Source: Candidatus Hermodarchaeota archaeon (GTDB lineage Archaea; Asgardarchaeota; Lokiarchaeia; Sigyniarchaeales; SOKP01). From it: a stretch of 64,000 bases of DNA. The stretch lies in NCBI GenBank assembly GCA_048885525.1, contig JBHLLP010000007.1:50956-114955 (forward strand), written 5' to 3'. Below the pieces are notes generated by a model that did no database searches, was not told the origin of the DNA, and saw only the letters and a list, made by a program, of their open reading frames with translations. Below, piece after piece: positions 11,283-59,213 of the stretch (the first letter of the stretch is position 1; every line of letters starts with the position of its first letter). A program made the position numbers and the translations under genes.

Positions 11283-12282
11283 GTGAAAAAAATGGGAAAA
11301 GTAATAATCCCAAAAAAAGTATATTTATGTTTAGTAGGAGCGTCAGTTAGGTTTGCTAACGTACGTATACCTAAAGATGATTGGTTAGAAGTGAGTGGTA
11401 TATTTACAGGAAGAAATCAAGGAGAAGATGTCATCATCACAGAATGTTACCCCATAATGCATCAAGAATTAGATAAAGATGCAGTTATCGATCAATATAA
11501 ATGGAGTGATGAAGACTATGAAGCTTTATACATTATCGACGAATTAGCCTTCTCAAGAGATCCCCCAGAGTTTGTAGTTGGATGGTGGCACAGTCATCCA
11601 GGCTTTCAGAGCATTGGAGTTCCCACGCTCTAGCTAAAAGGTAATGATGAGCCATATTGATATCCAAACTACTCTATCATACCAGCAAAATAATCCTTTA
11701 GCAATATCACTGGTTTTCAACCCTACAAGACTCATACGTCAGATCGAAGTAGCATATAAAAAAGGAGATCCCGATATACAATTAAAAAATGATCCTGGGT
11801 TTGAGATATTTAGGTTAGATGATATTAATCGAGGACTTGAAGCATCTTATCATCCGGTAGATTATAAAATTGAAGGATATGATAGTATGGAACAATTAGT
11901 CAATTTAACTCAGAAGTTTACAATAGATATTACTAATTTCTTTCCTAAAACTAATGTTCCTAAAATGTATGATAAATTTGTTAATGATAGAATTACTGAA
12001 TTAAATTCAAGATTTCAGGGAACTGAAGAATATCTGACCACTTTAACCATCCGTGGGGAAAAAGAGCGAATTCCAGATGTCTTAAAGAATCAAAGTGAAG
12101 AAATCAGTAAATTTGTAGCAGAAACTTCGATTAAGATAGATCGTATTAAGGAATTTATGGATTATTTAGAATATAAAGAAAGAGACACCATAGTACCTCA
12201 GATTGAGACAATTATACACAAATGGGATGATATGGTTGCGGGAGTAGATAAGAGAATAAAACAGCTAAAGAAGAAATTTTAA
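11283..12282 (+). CDS. MPN+/JAMM metalloprotease interrupted by a 31-nt BHB intron; join(11283..11606,11638..12282), 322 aa (alternative ATG at 11292)
   Basis: Joining GGC TTT to AAG GTA ATG ATG AGC CAT ATT GAT gives GWWHSHPGFKVMMSHID, the same HxH-x7-S-x2-D spacing as the two neighbouring paralogs. Confidence 0.88.
11607..11637 (+). other. 31-nt archaeal BHB-type mRNA intron
   Basis: Central helix GGCU(11601-04)/AGCU(11632-35); 3-nt bulges UU^C (11605-07) and AA^A (11636-38); intron stem AGAGC/GCUCU. Canonical cuts restore the frame and the active-site motif. Confidence 0.85.
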
Positions 12283-50471: not shown

Positions 50472-51092
50472 ATGGGAAAAGAAAGAGATTTTAGACTAGA
50501 TCCAAATTATAATCCTTATAGAGTCAAAAAGACGACTCCTGCCTCCAAAGAAACAGTCATTGATTTTGATACTAGGAGAATTTGTCCTGCTTGTGGATTA
50601 GACATTAAAATAAGCCACAATTTTTGTAAACGTTGCGGTGTAGATTTAAGTGCAATTGAGCCAATAGGAAATGATGAAATTTCTAAACAATTAGCAATAA
50701 CAGCCATCACTGATCCTGATCCAGAAGTACGAAAAGAAGCAGTTGATACTTTAGGAGATTTTGGAGATAATAAAGTATTAGGAGTTCTTACATATGTCTT
50801 ATTAAACGATCCAGATGAAAATGTAAGAAAAGAAGCTGCAGATGAACTTGGAGATCTCCACCATCCCTACAGTTTGGAGGTATTTACTAAAGCATTAAAA
50901 GATGAGAGTGCATTAGTTAGAAAGGAAGCAATAGAGGGTTTAAAGAAAATTAAAAAGAAGATCAAGACAGAGAAATTAGATGAAGGAAAACCAGAGAGTA
51001 GGTCAGCTGAAGAAGAAAAACCTAAACCAGGAGAAAAGACGGAGGAAAGTGCAGAAGAAAAGACAGAAGAAAGTAATAATAATCTAATCTAA
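50472..51092 (+). CDS. Zinc-ribbon + HEAT-repeat protein
   Basis: CPACG..FCKRCG; repeats DPDPEVRKEAVDTLG / DPDENVRKEAADELG. Confidence 0.85.
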   Translation: MGKERDFRLDPNYNPYRVKKTTPASKETVIDFDTRRICPACGLDIKISHNFCKRCGVDLSAIEPIGNDEISKQLAITAITDPDPEVRKEAVDTLGDFGDNKVLGVLTYVLLNDPDENVRKEAADELGDLHHPYSLEVFTKALKDESALVRKEAIEGLKKIKKKIKTEKLDEGKPESRSAEEEKPKPGEKTEESAEEKTEESNNNLI

Positions 51093-51187
51093 AAAAATTT
51101 TCTATTTTTTTTTTATTTAAGTAAATCCTTATATATCAGAATGAAAAATGTAAGAAAATTTAAAATTATAATTAAGAATGGAAGAGT

Positions 51188-52321
51188 TTAATCGTCTTTA
51201 CTTGGAATTTTTGGTAATTGTTGACGACTACTTGTTTTTTTTTCCTCGGATTTCTCTAAAATTTCTATTATATCAGCTTTTCTTGCATTAGTAGGTAGAT
51301 CTATTTTTTTTTCTTCAGCATAAGATTTTAAATCTTTCACAGTCATAGACTTAAAATCAACCTTTTCAGTGGATATTGGTGTTGCTGAGGATTTCATCAT
51401 TGATGCTGGTTTGGATGGCATTGGAGATAATCCAGAAGGAGATCTTGTTTTTGGAACACTCCTTAAGCTTGCTTCCTTTTCTAATACTTCAAGAGCCTCA
51501 ACAATTCCTTCTTTTTCGTCAAAATACACTCTTAAAACGTGATTATTTAATTCTATCATTTCTTTTGGAACTTTTTTAACTGGTTTCCACTCAGTTTCTT
51601 CAATCTCTTTTCCGAAAACATTAGCAATTTTCGATACTGCCGCATAGAGAGTATGACCTAAGATGAGATTAGATCTTTTATAATCTTTGGATAGCTCAGT
51701 TTTGAGAATTTTCTCTTTTATTTTTTGTTTTTGTTCCTCTGATAATCCTATTGCTTTCCTAACTGTAATTGGTTTAACCATTGCTGATTTTGGATATTCA
51801 GTCCTTGGTTTTGGGGTAGCAGTAGCAAAAGATGAAACCACAACTTCATTGCTTGTGTCTTGTAGTGCAGGTGAGTAGTATTCCTCTTCAGTTTGCATTT
51901 TAGTTGATTTTGGAGCAACATCTGTAATAGTTGCTTGCGCCATTCTTTCTCTTTCAATGTTTCGAACATATCTCATATCTGGCAATCGTTCAGTTACCTC
52001 CATCGATTCTAATCTGAATGCATTTAAGAATTCTGATGGTTCATCTCCAGCATCTACAGATATTATCTTACAGCGGTGATATCTAGAATCATTCATTAGC
52101 TCTTCTTGAAGATTTGAAGCTACTCTTGAACTAATAAATCTTTTTCGAACAGGAGATTTTGGTCCTTTCCAAATGAAGATCCTTCTTAAATCTTCTCTTA
52201 TTATCACTAAAACTTGTTCAGGATTTAAATTTTCCTGAAGCTCTTCTTCAGTGATGTTTAATTTTATTCTTTCTCCAGAATCATCTAATTCATATACCAT
52301 GAATGTCTCATACTCAGTCAT
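51188..52321 (-). CDS. Gelsolin-domain protein with C-terminal HeH (Rho-N/SAP/LEM-like) motif
   Basis: Gelsolin: VLVII..RIFIWKGPKSP..RF...SVDAGDEPSEFL. HeH: DFKSMTVKDLKSYAEEKKIDLPTNARKADIIEIL. Confidence 0.82.
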   Translation of the reverse strand: MTEYETFMVYELDDSGERIKLNITEEELQENLNPEQVLVIIREDLRRIFIWKGPKSPVRKRFISSRVASNLQEELMNDSRYHRCKIISVDAGDEPSEFLNAFRLESMEVTERLPDMRYVRNIERERMAQATITDVAPKSTKMQTEEEYYSPALQDTSNEVVVSSFATATPKPRTEYPKSAMVKPITVRKAIGLSEEQKQKIKEKILKTELSKDYKRSNLILGHTLYAAVSKIANVFGKEIEETEWKPVKKVPKEMIELNNHVLRVYFDEKEGIVEALEVLEKEASLRSVPKTRSPSGLSPMPSKPASMMKSSATPISTEKVDFKSMTVKDLKSYAEEKKIDLPTNARKADIIEILEKSEEKKTSSRQQLPKIPSKDD

Positions 52322-52535
52322 TTTCTTTCAGTGTAACAAATGATCCGTATTATTTTAATTTCTATTATGGTAATTAATACTTTTTAATTGAATATTTGAA
52401 ATTTCTATTCAAACTTATTTCTTTTAAAAAAAATATAAATTAAATTATTTTAAATCTTATTTTTTAAAAAACCAAGAGTATATTCTTTTCAGTTCGCTAT
52501 TTAATTAAAATTGGAAAAAAAAATAAAAGATTTCA

Positions 52536-53270
52536 TTAGTAGTCGTGAAGAACATTATCTATAGAAAGGACAAATCCAACTAAAATTCTACGATCAGTCT
52601 CATTATCTAGTATTCTCAAAGCGTATGTATCTTTAAAATCTAAAAGACCTCCAAGAAACACATCTCTCCATCGGTCTGCTTTTTCAATTTCTGCTACAAC
52701 ATTACCTGTTGTGACATCATATACCTTAAACGAAAAGCCCATAAACTTACCTTGGGCACGAAACCACTGATTTCCTTGAGGGTCTTCAAGATAGAATACA
52801 GGTCTAAAAAATGACAGAATTTTCTTCTTAATACGGGCTATTAAATTCCCTTGAGGATCTTTTAAATCTTGTGCTCCACGAGCAGATACGATTTTAGCAT
52901 GTATTGTAGCTGCGATTGAACCATCTACTTCTTGTAATTCAACCCTACGTCGAATGCTTAAAATTACTCTTTTCATTTTACCTATGATTTGATTATTCTC
53001 GTCTAATATATCACCAGAACCCCATTCGAGTTTAAATCCGAGGAGGATTTAAAAATCCCAGTATTTCTCTTTGAGAATATAATAGTTCCGGTTAATATCA
53101 AACAACCCACCGGGGCGACTAGATGGAGGGGCACTAGAAGGTGCAAGCCTTGTCGGTGTAGGGGTTGTTCCGACTTGTCTAACACTTTCTGGTATTGGCG
53201 AACCACATTTTTCACAGAAATTTTGAGTCAAGTCTTTTATTTCAGCTCCACAATCTTTGCAATATGGCAA
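52536..53270 (-). CDS. Zinc-ribbon + LURP-one/scramblase-like (Tubby C-terminal fold) protein interrupted by a 30-nt BHB intron; join complement(52536..53024,53055..53270), 234 aa
   Basis: TTG start with GGTGA SD; YCKDCG..FCEKCG; Pro-rich linker; spliced YILKEKYWD|WGSGDILDENNQIIGKMKR continues into ORF 52536..52976 (DTYAL...VLSID). Confidence 0.85.
53025..53054 (-). other. 30-nt archaeal BHB-type mRNA intron (contains in-frame UAA)
   Basis: Central helix UGGG(53060-57)/CUCG(53030-27); bulges AU^U (53056-54) and AA^U (53026-24); perfect 9-bp intron stem UUUAAAUCC/GGAUUUAAA with 5-nt loop. Confidence 0.85.
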
Positions 53271-53427
53271 TTTTATTCACCTTAACTTTTAAATTTGTAT
53301 TAATGTATGAATAATAAAATGTTCTAATAAAGTTTCGGGTATATGAGATATCCAAGATATCTTCATGAAAATGTTTTAATTAAATAAGCATTAATTATTA
53401 TTAGTGAAAAATAATTAGAGAAGTAAT

Positions 53428-54180
53428 ATGTCAAATAAAAGTATTCCAAAACTACTGAAATTAAAAGATTATATAACTCTGGTTGGAACAACTCTCGGAA
53501 TAATTTCATTAGTTTGCGCTTGTTTTGATCGCGTTGAAACTTTTTCTTTTGGATTCTTTTTGATATCTATCTCACTTGGTACTGATATGATAGATGGTTA
53601 TATAGCTCGAAAAACAATGACAGTAAACAAATTGGGGAAAGAATTAGATTCATTGAGTGATTCTCTCACTTTTGGAATTGCTCCTGCGGTTTTAACTTAC
53701 CAATCATTTAAAACAAATACTCTTTTTGATATCATTATTATAATTGGAGCAATATGTTTTGCTATTGGAGCAATGTTAAGATTAGCCCGTTTTAATATCT
53801 CAGAAGCTCCGGGGTATACGGGAGTACCTACACCTTTAAGTGCATTGTTATTAATTACCTTCTTTTATGCAAATTACTTTTATTATTTCGCTATAGGTAT
53901 TTTTTGGGGAATCTCCTCATATATAATACCGATAATTATGATTCTAACTGGCTGGTTTAATATAACAACTTACATTCATTATGGAGAGAAAGATAAGGCA
54001 ACCTATCTTCTTTTTATCGTAGTTGCTCCTTTATGCCCTATTTTTGGAATAATTGGTATTAGTTCACCTAATTTCCTGATTTCGATTATAGTATCAATAT
54101 TCTTTCTATGTTCTTTCGTCATTCTTATAATTTCATTTGTAAGAGGATTTATAATTTATTTTAGGAGGAGAATAGAATGA
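53428..54180 (+). CDS. pssA: CDP-alcohol phosphatidyltransferase (archaetidylserine/phosphatidylserine synthase-like)
   Basis: DMIDGYIAR...GKELDSLSDSLTFGIAP, LRLARFN, GVPTP. Confidence 0.82.
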   Translation: MSNKSIPKLLKLKDYITLVGTTLGIISLVCACFDRVETFSFGFFLISISLGTDMIDGYIARKTMTVNKLGKELDSLSDSLTFGIAPAVLTYQSFKTNTLFDIIIIIGAICFAIGAMLRLARFNISEAPGYTGVPTPLSALLLITFFYANYFYYFAIGIFWGISSYIIPIIMILTGWFNITTYIHYGEKDKATYLLFIVVAPLCPIFGIIGISSPNFLISIIVSIFFLCSFVILIISFVRGFIIYFRRRIE

Positions 54181-54235
54181 AGAAGCTTTATCTAAAAATC
54201 CATTTCATATTGAACAATAATAGAAGACTATTTGT

Positions 54236-56245
54236 TTAGAATAACTTCTTTTTCCAGCTCTCAATTTCTTCCATGATTTCCTTCTTGTCTTTTTCATCCA
54301 ACAAAGCTAATTTTTCTTTGTATTTTTCTATTGTGCTTCTTACCTTATGTAATGTTACTGAAAAACCTTTTTTTTCCAGTATTAAATCAGCAATATTTTG
54401 CAATTCCTTACCAAATTCATCTCCTTTAATATTACCAAGCTTATCAATTAAAATATTGAAAGCAGTGTTAATTTCTATTCCTACTTTATCACCTACCTGA
54501 GGTTGTGCTGCTGTTACAAAAGTTATTTTCTCTTGTAGTTTTCGCTTTAAATCTGTAATTCCCGGTGCAGTAGAAGATGGAACTGGAGTTGGGGTACTTG
54601 AGCTTATTGTATACCTTTTATCACTTTTTTCAATTTCTTGAATCTGGTCAGGCATTGTAATTGATGGTTTAATCTTTTTAGTTTCAATTTGGGAAGGTTT
54701 TTTAATTACATTTTGAGATTGAATTTTTCTAGGAATAATCGGTTTGATACTGGTAAGGGATTTTGTTGGTGTTGCCATACTAGCCTGTACTTTTGTTACT
54801 TGTGTAGCATGAAAAGAATCTGGATATGCTGTTTCCCAAATATTTTTTATAATAACATCTAACAATTTAATTAAAGGTTTAAACATGGTACTAAATCCAA
54901 TAAAATCATTCAAAGGGTCTTTCGAATCTTGGATTACACCCATGACGAAAAAATCATTATCGCCCTTTAACACAATCAATTCTTCATTTTGATATGTTCT
55001 ATATATAATTTTCTTAATATCTTTGAAACTTTTAACAATACTATTTGTATGAGCTTCTGAGGATGTGATTTTTATTTTCAAATTATCAGCAATTTTATCA
55101 AATTGCTCGAGAGCTAAATGGTTTTCAAGATGAGGAATTATAATGCTTAGATTTTCCTTAGAATTAACAATAAGATTCTGAATAATTTCATTAATCTTGG
55201 TTACACTGTTTATCATCCAAATCTTATCAAACATTTCTTGATCTATCGTTCTTATCTTTTGAAAGTAATTTTTCATCACATTTTCAATAGGTTTATTCAA
55301 ATTAGATACTTCATTGAGTGAATTTTGAATAATTGCACTTAAGTTTTCAGTGATCTTATTTTGAAGATTCTTCATAGCGGGTAAAAGATTTTCTTGATTC
55401 TCTTTAAGTACTTCATAAATTGCATTCATTTTTGATTCAAAATTAGTCAACATAGTCAGTAAAAGCATTTTAAAATCATTTCTGTATTGAAAGATTGAAT
55501 CTGAAGTTTTTTCTATTGGTTTGTAGATTTCATTAAACTCTTTTTCGATTAATTCGTGTAAGTTATTAGTAAAATCTCCAACCATATTATCAAATTTGTC
55601 CTTGAAATTTTGCTCTATAAGTAATAAAATTTCTTTCTTCTTAATGTTCTCAAGTAAATCTTTTTTAAGAGAATTTATAGTTTTAATAAGATCTGCAAAT
55701 TTCGTTTGAGTAATACTTTTAATATTTTTATGAAGATCAGAGACGATTTTATTAATTTTTTTTAATTCTTCCATACCCTCAACTATATCCTCTATTTCTT
55801 GCTTTTGGATAATAGAATCCTCATCAATATCTTTCTTAATTCCTTGAAATACATTTAAAATTGTATCTAACTCAATATCCTTATTTTCTTGAAAAGCATT
55901 AGATATTGATTTAGCTAGCAATTCATAAATCGAATTTTTGATATTGGGTAAATTAGTTTCAATATTATTATAATAATTTAAAATCGGAAGAATTGGTGCT
56001 AATGGTGTGTAATGTATTATATTTTCTTGATTCTTTGATTTATGTTGAACTAATAAACCAGAATCTAGAAGTTCGTTTAAACTGTTGTTAAATTCCTCTA
56101 GAGTTGCTTTAGGTACGATGCTATATAACTCATAAAACGAAAGAGGTAATTTTCCTAATGATTTGAGATAAATCTCTAAAGCATATTCAGAAAGTTGCAT
56201 TTTTCTTAAAAATTCATCCATTGATTCTTCACTTAAGTAATTCAT
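54236..56245 (-). CDS. TrmB-like HTH + coiled-coil + TrmB/PLD-like domain protein
   Basis: N-terminal LSEYALEIYL..LNELLDSGLL; long helical middle; SKENLSIIIP domain. Confidence 0.7.
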   Translation of the reverse strand: MNYLSEESMDEFLRKMQLSEYALEIYLKSLGKLPLSFYELYSIVPKATLEEFNNSLNELLDSGLLVQHKSKNQENIIHYTPLAPILPILNYYNNIETNLPNIKNSIYELLAKSISNAFQENKDIELDTILNVFQGIKKDIDEDSIIQKQEIEDIVEGMEELKKINKIVSDLHKNIKSITQTKFADLIKTINSLKKDLLENIKKKEILLLIEQNFKDKFDNMVGDFTNNLHELIEKEFNEIYKPIEKTSDSIFQYRNDFKMLLLTMLTNFESKMNAIYEVLKENQENLLPAMKNLQNKITENLSAIIQNSLNEVSNLNKPIENVMKNYFQKIRTIDQEMFDKIWMINSVTKINEIIQNLIVNSKENLSIIIPHLENHLALEQFDKIADNLKIKITSSEAHTNSIVKSFKDIKKIIYRTYQNEELIVLKGDNDFFVMGVIQDSKDPLNDFIGFSTMFKPLIKLLDVIIKNIWETAYPDSFHATQVTKVQASMATPTKSLTSIKPIIPRKIQSQNVIKKPSQIETKKIKPSITMPDQIQEIEKSDKRYTISSSTPTPVPSSTAPGITDLKRKLQEKITFVTAAQPQVGDKVGIEINTAFNILIDKLGNIKGDEFGKELQNIADLILEKKGFSVTLHKVRSTIEKYKEKLALLDEKDKKEIMEEIESWKKKLF

Positions 56246-56398
56246 ATGGTTCTTATTAATATTAGAAATACCAACCGAACTTATATAATCTTTTAGAATT
56301 AAAGAATCTTTTTTTTAAAAATTAAAATATTTAAGGAGGTTTCATCATTATGATTATTGATAAAATTTTAGATTCTCAACTAACTTGACAAAATAGAA

Positions 56399-57727
56399 GT
56401 GCTAGAAATGAGTGAGGATGTTTATTTTTATTTGGATCTAACTAAGGAATTATTAAAAAAAAAAGAGATTATAAAAACTATTAAATATTACATCGAGGAA
56501 AAAAATAAATCTAACCTAAAAGGGAATTATTCTCTTCTCATATTTCAACAAGAAGGAAACCCTATCTTTTTAACTGATAAAAAGGATTTCGAGATAATCG
56601 CTAACTCTATTGAAGAAAATTGGAATAATCGCCCAAAAGGACAAAGCTTTTTTGAAAATGGATTATTTTACATTTTTTCTTATATTGCTGAGACCGTCAG
56701 AAAAAAATCCAAATTTAACAGAATTATAGTTGTTACGGATACACCTTCTGACCTTTCTGCAGAATACCAAGAAGCATTATTTAATTTAGTATCAAAGATA
56801 AAAAATTTTCCAACTTTTATAGATATTATTAGAGTAACTAAGCAGGGAGAACGCTTTTTTAAAGATGATGTAAAATTGAATGTTTTAGCTAGTGATACAA
56901 AGGGAGGAATATTTTATATCCAAGATAGAAAAGGTTTCTTTGATGTGATTAAAAAGTTAGTAAAAACAAAGCAATTCGTGACTACTTTTACAGATAAATC
57001 CGAACTTGTTAGAATTAGTAAAGAAGATTATGCCTTTTTCAATAATTTAGCAAAATCAGTCGTAAAATCGAGTGAACTGAGTTTAGTTTGTCATTTTTGT
57101 AATGATGAAGTATGTCCTGTTTGCACCGATGTTCATGACGTTCCTAATATTTGTGAAGATTGTAATACAGCTTTCCATAATTGCTGCTTAACAAATTACA
57201 CAATAAATAACAATATTGGTATTCCTAATATTCTCAGATGCCCATCATGTGATGTACTCCTAAAAATCCCAGAAGATGAAATCATTGGACTATCTGAAGA
57301 AATTGAAGGAGAATCAGTAAAAGACTATATGGAAAAAGAATTTCTTCAAGATCTGGCAGAGGAAGTACCAGAAGGTCAAGAAGTTGTATTAGAGATACCC
57401 CCTGAACCAAAAGTTAAAGCTCCAAAGAAGGTTGCTAAAACTGTTTCCCCTGTAGAATCCACTAAAACAATCAGAATTGGGGGCTTTTTTGGGAAAGTCT
57501 TTACTGTAAAAAAGGTTGGAGATAAGATAGTTTATGAAAGAGCTACAAAATCTCCCATTAAACCAACCTCTGAGGCAAGAAAACGAGATGAAATCATACT
57601 CAAAGATGCGATACCACTCACAGATAAAAAATCAATTAAAAAGCCAAGTTTTATTATTTGTCCTCAATGTGGAACTCAAAATACTTCGCAACAAACCTCA
57701 TGTTCCAATTGTGGATATAAATTATAA
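56399..57727 (+). CDS. vWA-like domain + RING/PHD-like zinc finger + C-terminal zinc ribbon (paralog 1)
   Basis: FENGL, IIVVTD, LASDTKGGIFY; CHFC..CPVC..CEDCNTAFHNCC..RCPSC; CPQCG..CSNCG. Confidence 0.75.
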   Translation: MLEMSEDVYFYLDLTKELLKKKEIIKTIKYYIEEKNKSNLKGNYSLLIFQQEGNPIFLTDKKDFEIIANSIEENWNNRPKGQSFFENGLFYIFSYIAETVRKKSKFNRIIVVTDTPSDLSAEYQEALFNLVSKIKNFPTFIDIIRVTKQGERFFKDDVKLNVLASDTKGGIFYIQDRKGFFDVIKKLVKTKQFVTTFTDKSELVRISKEDYAFFNNLAKSVVKSSELSLVCHFCNDEVCPVCTDVHDVPNICEDCNTAFHNCCLTNYTINNNIGIPNILRCPSCDVLLKIPEDEIIGLSEEIEGESVKDYMEKEFLQDLAEEVPEGQEVVLEIPPEPKVKAPKKVAKTVSPVESTKTIRIGGFFGKVFTVKKVGDKIVYERATKSPIKPTSEARKRDEIILKDAIPLTDKKSIKKPSFIICPQCGTQNTSQQTSCSNCGYKL

Positions 57728-57875
57728 AATTCAGAAAGAATCTTAATTCTATAATATAATTATCTTATACTCTTTTATTAAAATCAATTAAATCACAATA
57801 TTGTTAAAAGAAAAATGACTGAATTTAGTATTATCAATAAAAATAAATAAAACTTCTGATATTATTTTTTTAAAG

Positions 57876-59213
57876 TTGTTCGATAATGAGAAAATGTTAA
57901 ATAAATTAGCAAGCGAGGAATTTATTTTTTACATCGATTTAATATCTGATTTCTTAAAGAAAAAATCTCTTATGAAAGCAATTAATGCTTTTATAAAAGA
58001 AAAAGATAAGTTTAATGCCTTGAGTTCTTACGGAGTAGTTTTATTTCAAAAAAATGAGAATCCAATTAACGTTTATGATTTAAAAGATGCAGAAACTGTT
58101 ATAAATACAATTGATAATGCTTGGGAAACAAGAGAAAATGAAAAAAGTTACTTAGAAAATGGTTTATATGAAATACTCGCATACATTTTTAGAAAAAGCC
58201 GTGAAACAAGAAAAAATTATCGTATAATAATAATTTCAGATACTCCTAGCAAGCTATCAGAGGATTATTACAATGCACTTTATGATTTATTGATTAAAGC
58301 AAAGAAATTTTCAGCTTTTATTGATATAATTCGAGTTGGAGAAGAGAAATTTTATGAAGATGACGTAAAACTTAAAGTTATTTCAAGTGAAACCCATGGA
58401 GGTACATTTTATTGTCCTAGTGAAAAACTTCTTCAAAATATACTGGGATCATTAACTCAAAATAAAAAAGAATTTAAAATTATTAAATCTGATGAACCTG
58501 AACAAATTTTAGAAGAAGATAAAGTTTTCTATGAACGACTGGCGGTAGATCTCATCAGTCTTTCTCCTGAAGATCAAGAAGTATGCGATATCTGCGAACA
58601 GGAACTATGTCCTATTTGTGAAGCCCATTCTGATGAGATACATAAGTGTTTTAATTGTGATGCTAGATTTCATAGTTGTTGTGCAGCAAAATATTCCCTT
58701 GCTAAAAATATCGGTTTTAAGCATGTATTTAGATGCCCTCAATGCGAAACTCTTTTGAAATTAGATGAAGAATTTGTAAATATGGTGTATCAAGAAGAAT
58801 TGGAAGAAGAACTACCTGATATTGATTTAAAAGAACCAGTTTCAGAAGAACCTATAATGCCTAAATATAAGGAAGAACCCATTTTAGAAGAACCTGAATT
58901 ACAAGACGATCTCGTTGAAGAAGTAGAAGTAGTAAGTGAACCAGAACCTTTATCCACATCAGATGTGGAAAAAAAAAAAGTAAAGCTAGGTGGATTTTTT
59001 GGTCAAGAAATCACAATTTCAAGAAAGTTATCGAAGGAGCAACCAATAAGAGATATTCCTGAAGTTATTAAACCAACAGAGAAACAAATTTCGATAACTA
59101 ATTTAACACCACCAAAAAGAAGGGCAACAGCATCAATAAAGCTTTGTAAAATTTGTGGAGCAACAATCCATAATACCCCAAATTGCCCAACATGCGGGGC
59201 TAAAAATGACTAA
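57876..59213 (+). CDS. vWA-like domain + RING/PHD-like zinc finger + C-terminal zinc ribbon (paralog 2)
   Basis: LENGL, IIIISD, SETHGGTFY; CDIC..CPIC..HKCFNCDARFHSCC..RCPQC; CKICG..CPTCG. Confidence 0.75.
   Translation: MFDNEKMLNKLASEEFIFYIDLISDFLKKKSLMKAINAFIKEKDKFNALSSYGVVLFQKNENPINVYDLKDAETVINTIDNAWETRENEKSYLENGLYEILAYIFRKSRETRKNYRIIIISDTPSKLSEDYYNALYDLLIKAKKFSAFIDIIRVGEEKFYEDDVKLKVISSETHGGTFYCPSEKLLQNILGSLTQNKKEFKIIKSDEPEQILEEDKVFYERLAVDLISLSPEDQEVCDICEQELCPICEAHSDEIHKCFNCDARFHSCCAAKYSLAKNIGFKHVFRCPQCETLLKLDEEFVNMVYQEELEEELPDIDLKEPVSEEPIMPKYKEEPILEEPELQDDLVEEVEVVSEPEPLSTSDVEKKKVKLGGFFGQEITISRKLSKEQPIRDIPEVIKPTEKQISITNLTPPKRRATASIKLCKICGATIHNTPNCPTCGAKND

What the first reader, a model, noticed from the sequence alone, without database searches (positions are those of the whole stretch)
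53011..53070. 30-nt stop-containing BHB intron in a zinc-ribbon/LURP-one (scramblase-like) gene
The minus-strand RNA reads AGAAAUAC-UGGG-AU^U-UUUAAAUCC-uccuc-GGAUUUAAA-CUCG-AA^U-GGGGUUCU. UGGG pairs with CUCG (two G-U), there is a perfect 9-bp intron stem, and a partial exon stem (C-G, U-G, AGAA/UUCU). Canonical cuts join TAC TGG GAT to TGG GGT TCT GGT GAT (YWD|WGSGD), fusing ORFs 53049..53270 and 52536..52976 into one 234-aa protein. The unspliced RNA would encode only a 73-aa zinc-ribbon peptide.
Basis: partly seen in the sequence, partly recalled or inferred. Interest (0 to 1): 0.9.

Follow-up and report, generated by a model that had tools for sequence, protein, structure and literature searches.

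The report
tRNA-type mini-intron in Asgard protein gene
A 30-base insert shaped like the introns archaea cut out of tRNAs breaks a conserved protein gene of a Lokiarchaeia-type Asgard archaeon; related genomes show it almost certainly has to be spliced out of the messenger RNA, which the papers I could search confirm for only one archaeal coding sequence (cbf5), but no spliced transcript was seen here.

Summary
Confirmed. Window 53054-53025 (minus strand) is a 30-nt insert with an in-frame stop and bulge-helix-bulge (BHB) geometry. Removing it at the canonical cuts gives the 234-aa zinc-ribbon + LOR/tubby-fold protein that intron-less relatives encode (KEKYWD|WGSG). 18 of 51 genomes of the genus carry an insert, at this site (B) or at a second site 12 nt upstream (A). 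All 30 distinct inserts of the main set pair the 4-bp central helix at the canonical register (shuffle rate 6%). The hairpin covaries, 7 of the 30 shift the frame, and both exons stay under purifying selection. The genome encodes a two-subunit EndA with the relaxed-specificity loop, and RtcB. Three more genes of this genome (one in this window) show the same pattern. Intron alleles are scattered on the gene tree and travel with a short patch of synonymous changes. No RNA evidence could be obtained, so splicing is inferred (about 0.9). The scan has reported this class before on other Asgard DNA; I found no paper on it.

The parts
53055..53270 (-). Exon 1 (coding): TTG start, zinc ribbon, Pro/Ser/Thr linker and first beta strand of the LOR/tubby barrel, ending at codon Asp72
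   Evidence: AlphaFold strand at 63-69 of the intron-less ortholog
53025..53054 (-). 30-nt BHB intron (site B)
   Evidence: absent at exactly this position in intron-less orthologs; BHB register and covariation
53057..53060 (-). Exon strand of the 4-bp central helix (UGGG); the two exon bases of the 5' bulge follow at 53056-53055
   Evidence: invariant in 16/16 aligned site-B alleles
53031..53053 (-). Intron hairpin, 9 bp with 5-nt loop; contains the in-frame TAA at 53051-53049
   Evidence: 6 of 9 pairs show two-sided compensatory changes
53027..53030 (-). Intron strand of the central helix (CUCG); 3' bulge AA^U at 53026-53024
   Evidence: 64 of 64 cells paired
52536..53024 (-). Exon 2 (coding): rest of the LOR/tubby barrel and central helix; the annotated ATG at 52976 lies inside the third strand
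53084..53092 (-). 5' arm of a long-range exon-exon stem
   Evidence: in the predicted fold with wider flanks; more often paired in intron-bearing alleles
53013..53021 (-). 3' arm of the long-range exon-exon stem
53066..53067 (-). Position of the second intron site (site A, between the Glu and Lys codons of KEK); empty in this genome, occupied by 27-30-nt BHB inserts in 8 genomes of the genus
11607..11637 (+). Second BHB intron in this window, 31 nt, frameshifting, inside the HxH-x7-S-x2-D motif of a JAMM/MPN-type gene (11283-12282)
   Evidence: 6 of 30 relatives' loci carry a 30-31-nt BHB insert here, 24 lack it

Best explanation
The insert is an archaeal BHB intron in a pre-mRNA. Shown: the insert, its geometry, its exact absence in relatives, selection on its fold and on both exons, and the genes for the enzymes. 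Inferred: the transcript folds into the central helix between two 3-nt bulges, held by the intron hairpin and by longer-range exon-exon pairing; the (alpha-beta)2 EndA cuts after the second base of each bulge; RtcB joins the exons; the spliced mRNA gives a 234-aa zinc-ribbon + LOR/tubby-fold protein, most likely a peripheral lipid-binding protein; unspliced RNA gives only a 73-aa zinc-ribbon peptide. Also inferred, less firmly (about 0.6): intron-bearing and intron-less alleles replace each other by short-patch recombination among relatives, the intron moving with about 30 nt of co-adapted exon on each side. The intron is more likely a tolerated passenger than a regulator.
For: Exact presence/absence at a Trp-Asp|Trp-Gly junction whose residues are 90-100% conserved. 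30/30 distinct inserts at two sites pair 4/4 at the canonical register against 5.8% in shuffles; of 2 further distinct inserts one pairs 4/4 and one 3/4. Site B: 98.2% of cells paired, 22 two-sided changes, 0/500 shuffles as high, slid controls 13-67%. Site A: the central helix covaries with an exon base (G-C 6, A-U 4, G-U 2). Lengths 27-31 nt, 7 of 30 not a multiple of three. pN/pS among intron-bearing alleles 0.05 before the junction, 0.13 between junction and internal ATG, 0.18 after. The junction lies between strands 1 and 2 of the barrel. EndA alpha has the catalytic Tyr/His/Lys region and the KPR loop aligned to Aeropyrum EndA; a second subunit and RtcB are present. Asgard EndA is reported as (alpha-beta)2 with the L1 loop, the type that cuts relaxed motifs (PMC5829648). 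Same pattern in AMP phosphorylase, a Rab-like GTPase and a JAMM gene. Patch movement.
Against: The exon helix next to the bulges is only one pair, so the motif is relaxed (HBh'-like). The central helix has predicted probability 0.55-0.65 here with wide flanks, 0.01-0.13 with other flanks, and under 0.2 at 25 C in 11 of 18 site-B alleles because of a competing exon-1 hairpin. The alleles are related, so counts are not independent.
Confidence: 0.9

Rival explanations
1. The gene is split into two proteins (73-aa zinc ribbon and 146-aa barrel from ATG 52976), and the hairpin is a spacer or translation signal.
For: Both ORFs exist and databases annotate the 145-146-aa and 72-76-aa pieces.
Against: The 16 codons between the junction and that ATG would be non-coding, yet have pN/pS 0.13. 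The 146-aa piece lacks strands 1, 2 and part of 3 of the barrel. It does not explain the exon-intron helix at the EndA register.
Confidence: 0.02
2. Translational recoding: stop read-through or ribosomal bypass of the insert, helped by the hairpin.
For: The insert here is in frame and a hairpin overlaps the stop; 23 of 30 inserts are multiples of three.
Against: Stops vary among TAA, TAG and TGA and some inserts have two; 7 of 30 shift the frame. Bypass needs matching take-off and landing codons (known from T4 gene 60, from memory); here they are GAU and GAA and the landing codon varies in relatives. Neither predicts the 4-bp helix and 3-nt bulges.
Confidence: 0.04
3. Inactivating insertions: small palindromic elements or their scars at a hot spot make these alleles pseudogenes.
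For: Patchy distribution on the tree (11 and 13 changes); about two thirds of genomes lack an insert.
Against: No other stops or frameshifts in carriers apart from one low-quality metagenome contig; strong purifying selection; no second close copy in G000; no similar sequence elsewhere in G000 at up to 7 mismatches; no target duplication; compensatory changes keep the fold.
Confidence: 0.03
4. Assembly or sequencing artefact.
For: All sources are metagenome assemblies.
Against: 32 distinct inserts in independent assemblies from several sources, diverged with covariation.
Confidence: 0.01

Closest known systems
cbf5 pre-mRNA intron of Desulfurococcales and Sulfolobales (Watanabe 2002; Yoshinari 2006; Yokobori 2009, PMC2738675)
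   Same: Short (16-44 nt there) intron inside a conserved coding motif, relaxed BHB, cuts between the second and third bulge bases, hetero-oligomeric EndA, gain and loss among relatives.
   Different: Other phylum and gene; two alternative sites 12 nt apart; turnover within one genus and even within a 90%-identity protein cluster; several unrelated genes per genome; splicing not yet shown by cDNA.
5' UTR intron of Haloferax volcanii HVO_1309 (Schwarz 2020, PMC7714728)
   Same: BHB intron in an mRNA, cut by EndA in vitro.
   Different: That one is 46 nt and outside the coding region; here translation of the full protein depends on removal.
Non-canonical tRNA introns of Asgard archaea (bioRxiv 10.64898/2026.10.13.758758) and Thermoproteales
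   Same: BHB motif, repeated gains, unknown route of arrival, same enzyme; G000 tRNAs also carry introns.
   Different: Host is an mRNA; the preprint does not mention mRNA or cbf5; this intron matches no other G000 sequence.
LURP-one-related (LOR, PF04525) / tubby C-terminal fold proteins
   Same: Pfam LOR above cut-off (40.3 bits); best fold match 1zxu At5g01750 (E 2e-5), then TULP1.
   Different: N-terminal zinc ribbon; Scramblase family below its cut-off (20.1 against 25.4 bits); no activity tested.

Membership tests
Archaeal BHB (EndA-type) intron | 4-bp central helix between exon and intron 3' end, flanked by two 3-nt bulges on opposite strands | tested here: met
   30/30 in the main set, 31/32 with the later inserts
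Archaeal BHB (EndA-type) intron | Cuts after the second base of each bulge restore the uninterrupted gene | tested here: met
   only this register works in 15 of 18 site-B alleles
Archaeal BHB (EndA-type) intron | Intron-side helix (h') | tested here: met
   9 bp here; covariation
Archaeal BHB (EndA-type) intron | Exon-side helix (h) directly next to the bulges, as in the strict hBHBh' form | tested here: not met
   one pair only at site B, two at site A; fits the relaxed HBh' form described in PMC5829648; longer-range exon stems are predicted
Archaeal BHB (EndA-type) intron | Host encodes an EndA type able to cut relaxed motifs, and a ligase | tested here: met
   two EndA subunits, loop and catalytic residues by alignment; RtcB; activity not tested
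Archaeal BHB (EndA-type) intron | Removal from the RNA in vivo or by EndA in vitro | not testable with these tools
Homing-endonuclease, group I or group II intron | Encoded ORF or ribozyme core | tested here: not met
   30 nt only; no Rfam match at E up to 1
LOR (PF04525) protein | Profile score above the curated cut-off and tubby-like barrel around a helix | tested here: met
Phospholipid scramblase (PF03803) | Profile score above the curated cut-off | tested here: not met
   19.5-20.1 bits against 25.4

The most novel reading that the evidence does not exclude
In this Lokiarchaeia genus, EndA/RtcB splicing of coding mRNA is routine, and the mini-introns are mobile without any enzyme of their own: intron plus a co-adapted synonymous exon patch of about 60 nt moves between close relatives as one unit, occupying alternative sites in a hairpin-forming stretch of the mRNA.
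Probability: 0.45. Interest if true: 0.9.

Novelty: new variant of a known kind. Interest (0 to 1): 0.8.

Why it matters
Published archaeal mRNA splicing rests on cbf5 and one 5' UTR (PMC2738675, PMC7714728); introns in other coding genes were only predicted. Introns in several coding genes of an Asgard archaeon would mean that relatives of the eukaryote ancestor splice mRNA with the tRNA enzymes, as eukaryotes do with RtcB-type or tRNA ligases for XBP1/HAC1 (own knowledge). It would also mean that Asgard genomes hold mis-annotated split genes, including eukaryote-like ones such as this LOR protein, a Rab-like GTPase and a JAMM protein. This gene is a good test case for intron gain and loss because empty, site-A and site-B alleles exist among near-identical genomes.

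Tried and rejected
I looked for a database protein identical to a spliced product: P0020 matches the spliced L128 over 153 aa, but its contig also holds the divergent upstream genes and differs at 18 of 130 flanking bases, so it is an intron-less DNA allele, not a transcript. No intron-less allele carries an intron allele's flank (nearest differ at 3-10 of 63 bases), so no recent clean loss was seen. No PF00078 reverse transcriptase in G000 (99% complete). An ab initio genome scan cannot count introns: 36 hits against 22-57 for decoy geometries, and it missed the JAMM intron; I used it only for leads. C15:20699-20673 was rejected as a junction of two CoA-transferase subunit genes. The early stop is not evidence of selection for a stop: stem-preserving changes explain TAA/TAG/TGA, and L246 lacks it. 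A and B never occur together, but the numbers are too small to call it exclusion. Rfam and the sigma-70 scan gave nothing.

Full report
Observation. After codons Tyr-Trp-Asp come 30 bases (53054-53025) with an in-frame TAA, then Trp-Gly-Ser-Gly. Removing them gives one 234-aa frame. The last six exon bases are UGGG plus AU; the intron has one base, a perfect 9-bp hairpin, then CUCG plus AA. This is BHB geometry with cuts after the second base of each bulge. None of 200,000 shuffles of the insert gave both the helix and the 9-bp stem, although the folding energy alone is ordinary.

Host and gene. Close homologs are named as Promethearchaeota or Lokiarchaeota proteins, so G000 is a Lokiarchaeia-type Asgard archaeon. 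Exon 1 holds a zinc ribbon and exon 2 most of a LOR domain. An AlphaFold model of an intron-less ortholog (mean pLDDT 78) matches Arabidopsis At5g01750 and TULP1. The junction lies between strands 1 and 2, and the annotated ATG at 52976 falls inside strand 3, so exon 2 alone lacks part of the barrel. The neighbours (a CDP-alcohol phosphatidyltransferase gene head to head, a gelsolin-repeat gene downstream) are kept in 30 and 29 of 30 loci. Lipid binding is an inference from fold and context; the Scramblase profile is below its cut-off.

Relatives. 51 of 54 genomes of the genus have the ortholog. 33 read KEKYWDWGSG or a close variant with no insert, 10 have an insert at this site (B) and 8 at site A, 12 nt upstream. 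Orthologs examined from other families had none. With metagenome loci there are 30 distinct inserts: 18 at B (30-31 nt) and 12 at A (27-30 nt). All 30 pair the four helix positions at the canonical register; shuffled inserts do so 5.8% of the time. Two more distinct inserts found later pair 4/4 and 3/4. At B, 98.2% of cells pair, six of nine hairpin pairs have two-sided changes, and sliding the partners drops pairing to 13-67%. At A one central-helix pair switches between G-C and A-U along with a synonymous exon change. These alleles are related, so the shuffle counts are not probabilities, but the slid controls keep relatedness.

Rivals. Seven inserts shift the frame and the stops vary, which read-through cannot serve. 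There are no matching take-off and landing codons for a ribosomal hop. Carriers are not decaying: pN/pS is 0.05-0.18, including the 16 codons that would be non-coding if the gene were simply split. The two database proteins with ten extra residues share one insert peptide; the one looked up reads through only with TGA as Trp and is a site-A intron.

Machinery. G000 has two EndA-family genes and one RtcB. The 198-aa subunit aligns best with Aeropyrum pernix EndA and keeps the catalytic Tyr, His and Lys positions and the KPR loop. Kaneta 2018 (PMC5829648) reports that Asgard EndA is (alpha-beta)2 with this loop and that this type cuts relaxed motifs. Instead, intron-bearing alleles have stronger exon-exon folding around the junction (-14.2 and -14.9 against -8.4 kcal/mol; control windows -8.2 against -7.8), with biased synonymous codons (ATC CTT in 11/12 A alleles against 10/88 empty ones; Leu as CTN in 18/18 B alleles against 36/88). 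Here a stem joins 53092-53084 to 53021-53013, and with it the central helix has probability 0.55-0.65. In many B alleles an exon-1 hairpin competes with the helix in the prediction, so splicing may be partial or rely on the enzyme; this is unresolved.

Evolution. On a tree of spliced coding DNA the inserts are scattered: at least 11 changes for A and 13 for B, with weak support forcing only 3 each. Close pairs that differ in the intron also differ more at synonymous sites near it than far from it (excess 0.19 against 0.07 for empty pairs, p 0.017). L244 (empty) and L128 (B) differ at 18 of 130 bases near the junction and 2 of 171 further on, with no amino-acid change. One 90% protein cluster holds empty, A and B alleles, each with its own patch. 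Intron similarity follows the flank (rho 0.36) and not the distal exon (rho 0.07; pairs not independent). Short-patch recombination fits best; selection on exon stems after independent gains could add to the signal, and direction cannot be read from these data.

Not alone. The same design, checked against relatives, interrupts the DKHSTGG motif of AMP phosphorylase (G000 C6:109044-109073; 21 loci with, 9 without), the G3 motif of a Rab-like GTPase (C39:27861-27892; 3 with, 26 without; same Trp-Asp context as site B) and the JAMM motif at window 11607-11637 (6 with, 24 without). These counts are of the best-ranked loci, not unbiased frequencies.

Known and new. The searchable papers confirm archaeal mRNA splicing for cbf5 and a Haloferax 5' UTR, and say introns in other coding genes were only predicted. 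A 2026 preprint on Asgard tRNA introns does not mention mRNA. The library lacks most subscription papers. The mechanism is a known kind; the host, the spread over many genes, the two sites and the patch-wise turnover are new to me. The scan has noted this class in many other Asgard windows; those notes are leads, and my score rests on the tests above. Verdict: real feature, BHB mRNA intron at about 0.9, splicing inferred and not observed, interest 0.8.

Noticed in passing
window 11607-11637 (+): 31-nt frameshifting BHB intron in the JAMM/MPN motif; 6 of 30 relatives' loci have a 30-31-nt insert here, 24 do not.
   Followed up: yes
G000 C6:109044-109073 (+), L150, L154-L183: 30-nt BHB intron in the DKHSTGG motif of AMP phosphorylase; central helix covaries with exon codon choice.
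   Followed up: yes
G000 C39:27861-27892 (+), L149, L184-L213: 32-nt BHB intron in the G3 motif of a Rab-like GTPase, after the same TGG GAT context as site B.
   Followed up: yes
G000 C52:11566-11536 (-), L151: 31-nt candidate BHB intron whose removal rebuilds a response-regulator receiver domain; not compared with relatives.
   Followed up: partly
G000 C24:3248-3219 (-), L152: 30-nt candidate with a 4/4 Watson-Crick helix in a short MvhD-like gene; not verified.
   Followed up: no
L244, L128, L134, L245-L254: Empty, site-A and site-B alleles within one 90% protein cluster, each with its own patch of synonymous changes, including Ser TCT to AGT switches.
   Followed up: yes
window 50472-59213: Neighbourhood rich in eukaryote-like domains: zinc ribbon-HEAT, gelsolin repeat-HeH, LOR, CDP-alcohol phosphatidyltransferase, and two similar Cys-rich proteins with C-terminal zinc ribbons.
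   Followed up: partly
G000 tRNA genes: Many tRNAs carry introns, several apparently outside position 37/38 or multiple, which ARAGORN mis-assigns; only 31 genes were called, and a tRNA-Sec is present.
   Followed up: no
G000 C15:62403-62762, G020 C117, G003 C11, G035 C21: More distant LOR paralogs (30-58% identity) in the same genomes; those examined showed no stop-containing insert.
   Followed up: partly
L245, L247, L248: A site-A insert whose central helix has only 3 of 4 pairs (A opposite G), the one exception among 32.
   Followed up: partly
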